Source of the DNA: a virus
Lineage: Duplodnaviria; Heunggongvirae; Uroviricota; Caudoviricetes
Length of the DNA: 33,382 nucleotides
Virus record (IMG/VR): IMGVR_UViG_2874945390_000012
Reading direction: 5' to 3' (one strand)
Of the stretch, positions 2,127 to 3,171 are shown one piece after another. A program made the position numbers and the translations under genes. Under the pieces are notes generated by a model. It did not search any database. It saw nothing but the letters and a program-made list of their open reading frames with translations, and was not told the origin of the DNA. Positions within the stretch are counted from its first letter, which is position 1. Every line of letters begins with the position of its first letter.

Positions 2127-3171
2127 CCAGTCAGTCTGGATATGGGCCAGTAGCAGTAGCGGGTGTGATAAATGGGGCCGTTAATGCCGTAAAAAGTAAG
2201 GGATTTGGCTCTGTACCGCGGTTCTGTTGTCTCAGGGCGTGCATCAGTCCACCGGATGCTGAGCACCCCTTCAAACCGTGTGTCGGGTATGATGCCCTGG
2301 CGGCCAGCAACGGAATACTCACCTGGCAGCGCATTCCTTACCCAGGCCAGGAAATCACTCTTAGTGTCAAAACGGATAACATCTTCAGGCAGAAAAGCAC
2401 ACCCAAAGCCGAATGCGCCGGGTATCGCCAGACGGCCTTTTGTCCGGTCGTAAATGTCGCTCTGTGCTTCCATCGTGGCCGCACTTTTCAGCCCCAGATT
2501 ATCCCGGGACTTCTGTTGTGCCTTTTCGCCTGCTGCTGCGATTTCAGACAGATGGTTAGCCGTTTTCAGAGTGCCGGTCAGCGCAGCATCAATGTCATTT
2601 TTGGCCTGTTCTGCTGCGCGGGCATAACCTGCGGCTGCCTGTGCACGCTGACCGGATAAGACGGCGTTTTTCCCCGTGCTTTTCACGTCTTCCGCTGTGG
2701 CCTTTCTGTTCTCAGCTGTGACGGTTGCATCCTGTCGGGCTTTCTCCGCAAAACGTTGTGCATCATCACGGGCCGTTGCGGCTGCCGTCACATCCTGCGC
2801 CGTCTGCCGTGCGTTTCCGGCTGCGGCCCGGCACTCTGCTGCGCCTGTTGCGCCAGCTCTTCGAATTTCTTCAGGGATTCCGGACGCAGGTCAATATCAG
2901 TTGCGCCCAGAAAATCATTCAGCGAACCGTCCGTTGAATCTTCATAAACGCGGATGACACCGATTTCTGAAAGGCGCTGTGTGCTTTGTGTCAGGCGAAC
3001 GCTGTACACACCCGGCAGAACGGGGAAGTCATATTCCCCGTTCTGTGTGGTGACATGGCTGAAAACACTTTTCAGAATCCCTGCACGGTTGTGCATGGAG
3101 ATTAGTGTAATGGTTGCGCCGCCCAGCGGTTCTCCCGTGGGCGTTTTAATCACACCTTTAAGCTGCGGCAT
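2123..3171 (-). CDS. Lambda Stf-like side tail fiber, split across two reading frames (2788..3171 N-terminal domain; 2123..2791 Ala-rich shaft and C-terminal domain)
   Basis: The N-terminal ORF (MPQLKGVIKTPTGEP...GEYDFPVLPGVYSV...VYEDSTDGSLNDFLGATDIDLRPESL) resembles the N-terminal domain of E. coli prophage side tail fibers (StfR-like, from memory). The downstream frame continues the Ala/Gln-rich repeat upstream of its GTG start (…AGNARQTAQDVTAAATARDD…). The two ORFs overlap as GTGA. Confidence 0.6.

What the first reader, a model, noticed from the sequence alone, without database searches (positions are those of the whole stretch)
2780..2895. Stf-like fiber split between two frames at a GTGA junction
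The N-terminal domain ORF ends ...QQSAGPQPETHGRRRRM*, and its stop overlaps a GTG that starts the Ala-rich shaft ORF. The shaft frame is open and shaft-like for ~100 nt upstream of that GTG (…RAAGNARQTAQDVTAAATARDD…). Either a frameshift split a single fiber gene, or the two parts are made as separate translationally coupled polypeptides.
Basis: seen in the sequence. Interest (0 to 1): 0.45.

Follow-up and report, generated by a model that had tools for sequence, protein, structure and literature searches.

The report
Frameshifted prophage tail-fibre pseudogene
This is one tail-fibre gene of a defective Mu-like prophage in Shigella boydii, broken into three reading frames by two small slippage deletions; it is ordinary gene decay or possibly an assembly error, not a designed two-protein fibre.

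Summary
On the minus strand, a 127-aa ORF (3171..2788, Stf-type N-terminal domain) ends in a TGA that overlaps the GTG of a 222-aa Ala-rich ORF (2791..2123).

The GTGA is a by-product. The break lies 36 nt upstream, where a G run (2827-2829) is one base shorter than in every relative. Fourteen other genomes read GCCGGGGCC or GCCGGGAGC there. They encode one continuous fibre of 467-535 aa (...QQSAG[A/S]AAGNARQTAQDV...). The GTG "start" is an internal Val codon of that protein.

A second frameshift was missed. One ACTG unit is lost at 2128-2135, which splits off the C-terminal 117 aa (2126..1773) and creates another GTGA overlap. This lesion is shared with four other assemblies, including S. flexneri and S. 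sonnei.

The window is Shigella boydii CP026836.1. Its prophage also has broken baseplate genes, and a second Mu-like prophage in the same chromosome has its own fibre broken at other positions.

There is no slippery heptamer, no usable Shine-Dalgarno, and no conservation of the split.

Verdict: a frameshifted pseudogene. A homopolymer assembly error at the G run cannot be excluded. It resembles the stf frameshift of laboratory lambda. Low interest.

The parts
2788..3171 (-). ORF A, 127 aa. It has 115 native residues of the fibre (the Stf-type N-terminal anchor or collar domain), then 12 out-of-frame residues (PQPETHGRRRRM, 2826..2791) and the stop.
   Evidence: Pfam PF08400 phage_tail_N, E 3.7e-25. 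The match stops at profile position 118/134, whereas it reaches 132/134 in the intact homologue. Residues 3-90 of the intact homologue match the Ur-lambda Stf collar domain PDB 9E7M/9MGH at E 1.8e-9. tblastn of the intact 468-aa protein places residues 1-115 at 3171..2827.
2827..2829 (-). First frameshift site. The gene-strand G run is GGG here, where relatives have GGGG (or GGGA). Losing one base moves the fibre reading frame by -1.
   Evidence: The window reads GCCGGGCCGCAGCC. Fourteen other genomes read GCCGGGGCCGCAGCC, GCCGGGGCTGCAGCC or GCCGGGAGCGCAGCC, all in frame.
2788..2791 (-). GTGA overlap: GTG 2791-2789 and TGA 2790-2788. It is a by-product of the frameshift. In the intact gene these bases are GAT GTG ACG, encoding D-V-T.
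2123..2791 (-). ORF B, 222 aa as called. It is the Ala-rich shaft and middle part of the fibre. True fibre homology in this frame begins upstream, at 2827.
   Evidence: tblastn places residues 116-350 of the intact protein at 2827..2126, 96.6% identity. See also alignment A1.
2128..2135 (-). Second frameshift site. The tandem repeat is (ACTG)2 here, where relatives have (ACTG)3 or ACTGACTGGCTG. Four bases are lost.
   Evidence: The same 4-nt loss occurs in GCA_000268085.1, GCA_031671475.1, GCA_900457175.1 and GCA_042138845.1. It gives 350-aa products ending ...WPISRLTG in S. flexneri and S. sonnei.
1773..2126 (-). ORF C, 117 aa: the C-terminal (distal) part of the fibre in a third frame. Its GTG (2126-2124) again overlaps the TGA of ORF B (2125-2123). 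In the intact protein that GTG is the Val of ...WVKINITTE....
   Evidence: tblastn places residues 349-468 at 2135..1776, 97.5% identity. See also alignment A1.
3158..3703 (-). Tail fibre assembly gene (181 aa) upstream. It overlaps the start of ORF A by 14 nt.
   Evidence: Pfam PF02413 Caudo_TAP, E 7.9e-27. Nine other contigs with an identical product carry a fibre ORF that continues across junction 1.
1196..1822 (-). DUF4376 gene (208 aa) downstream of the fibre. It is probably the chaperone or assembly partner of this fibre.
   Evidence: Pfam PF14301, E 3.2e-16. It holds the same position in all homologous loci and in phage phiP27 as L57.

Best explanation
The three ORFs are fragments of one Stf-like tail-fibre gene, about 468 aa when intact. 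It belongs to a defective Mu-like prophage in the Shigella boydii chromosome CP026836.1.

Two slipped-strand deletions inactivated the gene:
- One ACTG unit was lost from a short tandem repeat at 2128-2135. This lesion is older and is shared with prophages in four other assemblies, including S. flexneri and S. sonnei. It removes the distal 118 aa.
- One G was lost from a GGGG run at 2827-2829. This is seen only in this genome. It separates the N-terminal anchor domain from the shaft.

Both GTGA overlaps are accidents. After each deletion, the first out-of-frame stop happens to be a TGA preceded by G, and the GTG is an internal valine codon.

No functional fibre is made. At most, a 127-aa collar-domain stub could be translated from the intact start of ORF A.

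What is shown: the lesions, their positions, the single-ORF state of homologues, and the decay of the rest of the prophage. What is inferred: the slippage mechanism, the order of events, and the loss of function.
For: **Homologues are single ORFs**
- The closest relative, E. coli FDAARGOS_943 (97.9% identity), has one 468-aa CDS covering all three ORFs. So do VL40, RMDEC465, FDAARGOS_944, CFSAN029787 and UMNF18, at 467-535 aa.
- Phage phiP27 gene L56 is also one ORF, 490 aa.

**The lesions are small indels**
- DNA alignment shows exactly three indels in the gene: -1 nt, -3 nt (in frame, close to an allele in L007, a lambdoid prophage of E. coli FDAARGOS_944) and -4 nt.
- Protein homology passes from frame -2 to -1 to -3 at 2827 and about 2130.
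- The Pfam phage_tail_N match is cut short by the first frameshift.

**Distribution among genomes**
- At junction 1, all 14 other genomes are in frame. Nine contigs with an identical upstream Tfa gene have the fibre ORF running through it.
- The 4-nt deletion is shared by four independent assemblies.

**The prophage is decayed elsewhere**
- The gp44-like gene is frameshifted (T6 to T5) and has an 84-nt deletion.
- A 57-nt deletion lies at the end of the gp45 gene and the start of gp46.
- Two further genes carry paired 1-nt deletions.
- The gp44 and gp45 lesions are confirmed in at least four short-read (Logan) assemblies.
- A second Mu-like prophage in the same chromosome has its paralogous fibre broken at other sites, including a 23-nt insertion.

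**Host genes**
- Flanking host genes show Shigella-type decay: 4-nt deletions in ybdR and citT, seen on 8 and 15 contigs, and a nonsense codon in ybdK.
- About 12 kb of intact host coding sequence has no 1-nt indel.
Against: - The exact 127-aa and 222-aa products occur in this one assembly only.
- No independent assembly of this dsbG::Mu locus exists in the collections. The G4-to-G3 change therefore has no independent confirmation.
- Four other single-base deletions in this prophage are also unique to this assembly, three of them in runs of four or five C. That is the error pattern of long-read consensus sequences.
- Loss of function is inferred, not measured.
Confidence: 0.68

Rival explanations
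1. The missing G at 2827-2829 is a homopolymer error of the assembly, not a mutation. In the real strain the gene would read through junction 1 as a 350-aa product. It would still be truncated by the genuine 4-nt deletion, as in S. flexneri and S. sonnei.
For: - The change is a one-base loss in a G4 run relative to the VL40-type allele.
- It is unique to this assembly.
- Four other 1-nt deletions in the window (14205, 14289, 26004, 26062; three of them in runs of four or five C) also give products seen only in this assembly.
- By contrast, the lesions found in independent assemblies are the T6-to-T5 change and the 57-nt and 4-nt deletions.
Against: - About 12 kb of intact host coding sequence flanking the prophage has no 1-nt indel. 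All such indels lie in intergenic DNA, a dead gene or the defective prophage, as expected for real mutations filtered by selection. At a uniform rate about 2.5 would be expected, so P(0) is about 0.08 by my arithmetic.
- One homopolymer deletion of the same kind (T6 to T5, at 7787) is confirmed by short-read assemblies.
- The gene was already dead, so further real decay is expected.
- Uniqueness says little, because no other assembly of this locus exists.
Confidence: 0.28
2. A programmed -1 ribosomal frameshift in the 99-nt overlap joins ORF A to ORF B into one fibre protein.
For: - Frame B is -1 relative to frame A.
- The two frames overlap by 99 nt.
Against: - There is no X XXY YYZ slippery heptamer in any frame of the overlap.
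- The two-frame layout is absent from all 14 other genomes, which are simply in frame. Programmed sites are conserved.
- The product would still be truncated by the second frameshift.
Confidence: 0.01
3. The N-terminal anchor domain and the shaft are made as two separate polypeptides, translationally coupled through the GTGA overlap. They would then assemble non-covalently into a fibre.
For: - The 4-nt stop/start overlap resembles coupled gene pairs.
- The break lies about 20 nt downstream of a natural module boundary between the anchor domain and the shaft, the mosaic joint at about 2848.
Against: - The GTG is an internal Val codon in all intact homologues.
- AGGA ends 1 nt before the GTG, which is too close.
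- ORF A ends in 12 frameshift-derived residues.
- ORF B would lack the domain that anchors Stf to the tail (PMC12617516) and also the distal 118 aa.
- An identical GTGA overlap arises at the second, demonstrably mutational junction.
- No homologue has this layout.
Confidence: 0.02

Closest known systems
stf of laboratory lambda (lambda PaPa / lambda WT) versus Ur-lambda
   Same: - A side-tail-fibre gene with the same type of N-terminal anchor domain is split into two ORFs by a frameshift, so no side fibres are made (PMC12617516, introduction, citing its ref. 7).
- The intact homologue of the window's gene matches the Ur-lambda Stf collar domain (PDB 9E7M/9MGH) over residues 3-90, E 1.8e-9.
   Different: - Here the gene sits in a Mu-like, contractile-tail prophage module rather than after J and lom.
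- It carries two frameshifts, giving three pieces.
- The first lies just after the anchor domain rather than further along the gene; the position in lambda is from my recollection and was not tested.
- The host prophage is otherwise defective.
Phage phiP27 tail-fibre module L54-L57 (NC_003356.1)
   Same: - Same gene order: fibre, Caudo_TAP assembly protein, Stf-N-type fibre, DUF4376-like protein, at the end of a Mu-like tail and baseplate cluster.
- L56 aligns with 99% of the intact 468-aa protein in one piece.
   Different: - Only 36% identity.
- L56 is one intact 490-aa ORF in a sequenced phage genome.
Intact Stf-N fibres of E. coli Mu-like and lambdoid prophages (WP_197939765.1, WP_490181994.1, WP_197933476.1, WP_046881377.1)
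   Same: - 95-98% nucleotide identity over the parts they share.
- The shaft and tip are shared between Mu-like and lambdoid prophages, from the mosaic joint at about window 2848 onward.
   Different: They are single ORFs of 467-471 aa. The window's copy is frameshifted twice.
350-aa truncated fibres of S. flexneri and S. sonnei prophages (EIQ06257.1, SUI70291.1, MFB5672504.1)
   Same: They carry the same 4-nt deletion and the same C-terminal end...WPISRLTG.
   Different: They are continuous across junction 1. The window's copy has the extra 1-nt loss.

Membership tests
Stf-type tail fibre (Pfam PF08400 phage_tail_N at the N-terminus) | N-terminal phage_tail_N domain above Pfam's gathering score | tested here: met
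   ORF A scores 88.9 bits against a cut-off of 26.6, E 3.7e-25. The match is truncated at profile position 118/134 by the frameshift.
Stf-type tail fibre (Pfam PF08400 phage_tail_N at the N-terminus) | Sequence homology to the structurally defined Ur-lambda Stf collar domain | tested here: met
   Residues 3-90 of the intact homologue match PDB 9E7M/9MGH at E 1.8e-9. The N-terminus is 41-42% identical to lambdoid side tail fibres.
Stf-type tail fibre (Pfam PF08400 phage_tail_N at the N-terminus) | Anchor domain, shaft and distal domain in one continuous reading frame | tested here: not met
   The window has three frames. All homologues have one. The window's copy is therefore a pseudogene of this family, not a working member.
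Stf-type tail fibre (Pfam PF08400 phage_tail_N at the N-terminus) | A chaperone or assembly gene immediately downstream | tested here: met
   A DUF4376 gene lies at 1822..1196. It holds the same position in all homologous loci. Chaperone function itself was not tested.
Programmed -1 ribosomal frameshift site | Slippery heptamer X XXY YYZ in the overlap | tested here: not met
   None was found in any frame between 2900 and 2770.
Programmed -1 ribosomal frameshift site | Two-frame arrangement conserved in homologues | tested here: not met
   All 14 other genomes are in frame at this site.
Translationally coupled overlapping gene pair | Start codon with a Shine-Dalgarno sequence at functional spacing, and the split conserved in relatives | tested here: not met
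   AGGA ends 1 nt before the GTG. The GTG is an internal Val codon in relatives. No relative is split here.
Frameshifted pseudogene in a decaying prophage | Indel relative to intact orthologues, homology switching frame at the indel, and other inactivating lesions in the same element | tested here: met
Frameshifted pseudogene in a decaying prophage | Lesion confirmed by independent sequencing of the same strain | not testable with these tools
   No other assembly of this dsbG::Mu locus is in the collections. The second (4-nt) lesion is confirmed in other genomes.

The most novel reading that the evidence does not exclude
The 127-aa ORF A product, an intact collar or anchor domain with a short aberrant tail, might be expressed and do something useful. 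It could cap fibre-attachment sites on tails of a co-resident phage. Alternatively, the short G run could act as a slipped-strand on/off switch for fibre production. Nothing found here supports either idea. The G run is only 3-4 nt long, the gene carries a second fixed frameshift, and the prophage baseplate genes are broken.
Probability: 0.02. Interest if true: 0.4.

Novelty: already known. Interest (0 to 1): 0.06.

Why it matters
It matters little beyond annotation.

- **Annotation.** The three ORFs at 1773..3171 should be annotated as one frameshifted tail-fibre pseudogene, not as separate proteins. GenBank-derived gene calls list 127-aa and 222-aa products.
- **A caution for scans.** A 4-nt GTGA stop/start overlap next to an open alternative frame is what a frameshift typically leaves behind. 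It is not evidence of translational coupling.
- **Context.** The locus is a small example of prophage decay in Shigella. It also illustrates the exchange of fibre shaft and tip modules between Mu-like and lambdoid prophages.

Tried and rejected
- **Nucleotide search against sequenced phages.** A megablast of the region found nothing. Only a protein-level search found relatives: phiP27 at 36% identity and lambdoid Stf N-termini.
- **Independent sequence of the same locus.** I tried to decide between real mutation and assembly error this way. Exact look-ups of ORF A, ORF B and the dsbG::Mu junction ORF returned this assembly only. The short-read contigs that confirm the baseplate lesions are 3.9 kb and stop short of the fibre.
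- **Indel rate in host flanks.** I used this as an indirect test. It leans towards real mutation, P about 0.08, but is not decisive.
- **Programmed frameshifting and translational coupling.** Both were considered and rejected.

Full report
**What is in the sequence**

The genes of this region lie on the minus strand.

- ORF A (3171..2788, 127 aa) ends ...QQSAGPQPETHGRRRRM*.
- Its TGA (2790-2788) overlaps the GTG (2791-2789) of ORF B (2791..2123, 222 aa, MTAAATARDDAQRF...).
- Frame B is open for 33 codons upstream of that GTG, up to 2890.

ORF B in turn ends in a TGA (2125-2123) that overlaps the GTG (2126-2124) of a third ORF, C (2126..1773, 117 aa).

**What the pieces are**

- ORF A carries the Pfam domain phage_tail_N (PF08400, E 3.7e-25) and a CarboxypepD_reg-like beta-sandwich.
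- The intact homologue matches the Ur-lambda Stf collar domain, PDB 9E7M/9MGH, over residues 3-90 at E 1.8e-9. In Ur-lambda that domain (residues 1-94) forms the collar of twelve Stf N-terminal domains on the tail tip complex (PMC12617516).
- Upstream lie a 366-aa fibre gene and a Caudo_TAP assembly gene (3703..3158). Downstream lie a DUF4376 gene (1822..1196), then com and mom.
- The whole window is a Mu-like prophage, running from transposase A and B to mom.
- It lies in Shigella boydii ATCC chromosome CP026836.1 / GCF_002950135.1 (PMC12679885 Table 6; PMC12817139).

**Comparison with relatives**

The closest relative is a Mu-like prophage of E. coli FDAARGOS_943, 97.9% identical over 2.1 kb. 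It has one 468-aa CDS (WP_197939765.1) covering ORFs A, B and C.

The window's gene differs from it by three indels:
- 1 nt at the G run 2827-2829.
- 3 nt at about 2290. This is in frame; a lambdoid-prophage copy in E. coli FDAARGOS_944 (L007) has the same one-residue gap and a similar sequence (GRLG against GRQG).
- 4 nt at 2128-2135.

tblastn of the intact protein maps residues 1-115 to frame -2 (3171..2827), residues 116-350 to frame -1 (2827..2126) and residues 349-468 to frame -3 (2135..1776).

Five further E. coli prophage copies, Mu-like and lambdoid, are single ORFs of 467-535 aa. They read ...QQAQQSAG[A/S]AAGNA[R/Q]QTAQDV... without interruption. Phage phiP27 has the same four-gene fibre module, with a single 490-aa L56.

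The Pfam phage_tail_N match runs to profile position 132/134 in the intact protein. It stops at 118/134 in ORF A, so the break lies inside the family's conserved region.

**The first lesion**

At the junction, fourteen other genomes read GCCGGGGCCGCAGCC, GCCGGGGCTGCAGCC or GCCGGGAGCGCAGCC. Only CP026836.1 reads GCCGGGCCGCAGCC, one G fewer than the first allele. Nine contigs whose upstream Tfa protein is identical to the window's carry a fibre ORF that continues across this point, to 350 aa, 468 aa or the contig end.

The 12 codons after the run (PQPETHGRRRRM) are out-of-frame fibre sequence. The GTG "start" is the Val codon of ...AQDVTAAA....

Only the 12 codons of frame B next to the GTG are fibre-like by homology. 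The 21 codons further upstream are the alternative reading of the end of the anchor domain.

**The second lesion**

Relatives have GACTGACTGACTGGGTG or GACTGACTGGCTGGGTG. The window has GACTGACTGGGTG.

The same 4-nt loss is present in GCA_000268085.1, GCA_031671475.1, GCA_900457175.1 and GCA_042138845.1. It gives 350-aa proteins ending ...WPISRLTG in S. flexneri and S. sonnei, and those proteins are continuous across junction 1.

So the distal 118 aa were lost earlier or recurrently, and the G deletion is a later, private event. This junction also forms a GTGA overlap by accident, which shows that such overlaps are a routine by-product of frameshifts.

**Rivals tested**

- Programmed -1 frameshifting: there is no X XXY YYZ heptamer anywhere in the overlap, and the arrangement is not conserved.
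- Translational coupling: the only SD-like motif (AGGA) ends 1 nt before the GTG. ORF B would lack both the anchor domain and the distal part, and no relative is split here.

Both are rejected.

**State of the element**

Relative to the intact E. coli prophage, the window's copy also has:
- a frameshift (T6 to T5, about 7787) and an 84-nt deletion in the gp44-like baseplate gene;
- a 57-nt deletion at the end of the gp45 gene and the start of gp46;
- two 1-nt deletions each in a 203-aa late gene and in the gemA/gp16 gene.

The truncated 278-aa and 239-aa baseplate products are found in at least four short-read assemblies. They are also found in a second Mu-like prophage of the same chromosome. 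That second copy has its paralogous fibre broken at other places: a C3-to-C4 insertion and a 23-nt insertion. Its DUF4376 gene carries a T8-to-T7 deletion.

Flanking host genes show typical Shigella decay. These include 4-nt deletions in ybdR and citT, seen on 8 and 15 contigs, and a nonsense codon in ybdK.

**Real mutation or assembly error?**

The G4-to-G3 change and four other 1-nt deletions are unique to this assembly, three of the four lying in runs of four or five C. That is the error signature of long-read consensus.

Against this:
- No other assembly of this dsbG::Mu locus exists, so uniqueness says little.
- One lesion of the same type is independently confirmed.
- About 12 kb of intact host coding sequence in the flanks contains no 1-nt indel. 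About 2.5 would be expected at a uniform rate, so P is about 0.08 by my arithmetic.

I put a real mutation at roughly 0.7 and an assembly error at roughly 0.3. Either way this is one gene, and it is non-functional because of the shared 4-nt deletion.

**Comparison with the known, and verdict**

The closest precedent is laboratory lambda, whose stf gene is frameshifted relative to Ur-lambda so that side fibres are not made (PMC12617516). This locus is the same kind of thing, in a Mu-like prophage of Shigella, with two lesions instead of one.

It is a pseudogene of the Stf-N fibre family. It fails the family's requirement of a continuous frame, and it meets none of the criteria for programmed frameshifting or coupled genes. 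Novelty is nil and interest is low. The practical outcome is an annotation correction, and a caution about reading GTGA overlaps as design.

Noticed in passing
window 6445-8349 (minus strand): The baseplate genes are broken. The gp44-like gene has a T6-to-T5 frameshift at about 7787 and an 84-nt deletion at about 7667. A 57-nt deletion at about 6845 lies at the end of the gp45-like gene and the start of gp46. The resulting 278-aa and 239-aa products recur in at least four short-read assemblies and in a second prophage of the same chromosome.
   Followed up: partly
window 14205, 14289 and 26004, 26062: Two pairs of single-base deletions disrupt a 203-aa late gene (two C5-to-C4 changes) and the gemA/gp16 gene (TT to T and C4 to C3). 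The products are seen only in this assembly, so these could be long-read homopolymer errors.
   Followed up: partly
L015 (CP026836.1 4456303-4477139), fibre at 15071-16682: A second Mu-like prophage sits in the same chromosome, next to IS66 elements. It has the same broken baseplate genes. Its paralogous Stf-type fibre is split into 224 aa and 303 aa by a C3-to-C4 insertion and a 23-nt insertion. Its DUF4376 gene has a T8-to-T7 deletion.
   Followed up: partly
window about 2848 (minus strand): There is a mosaic joint here. Upstream, the anchor domain is only 30-57% identical to the lambdoid-prophage Stf of E. coli FDAARGOS_944. Downstream, the shaft and tip are 97-100% identical. The same shaft and tip module is therefore shared between Mu-like and lambdoid prophages. 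Many draft Shigella assemblies break their contigs at this joint, giving partial 112-116-aa proteins.
   Followed up: partly
window 1196-4806 (minus strand): The Mu-like tail cluster ends with two fibre and chaperone pairs in tandem on one strand: a 366-aa fibre with Caudo_TAP, then the Stf-N fibre with DUF4376. No gene was identified between the DUF4376 gene and com, so I saw no gin-like invertase there; I did not search for an invertible segment. Phage phiP27 has the same layout in L54-L57.
   Followed up: partly
window 1-240 and L033 1-7500 / L010 10700-20696: The prophage is flanked by a dsbG remnant on the mom side. On the transposase side the flank carries, by my reading, entS and a truncated fepB; those two were identified only from Pfam families and gene order. 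These genes are not neighbours in E. coli K-12 as I recall the map. This suggests a deletion of the enterobactin ent/cstA-ybd region next to the insertion. A second gap lies between ybdK and entS.
   Followed up: no
L010 14630 and 17629; L033 3471-4589: Host genes next to the prophage are decayed. ybdR and citT each have a 4-nt deletion, with the exact products seen on 8 and 15 contigs. ybdK has an internal stop codon.
   Followed up: partly
window about 26759 and about 22459: Relative to the E. coli FDAARGOS_943 prophage, the window has a 340-nt insertion near 26759 and a 160-nt deletion near 22459. Neither was examined.
   Followed up: no
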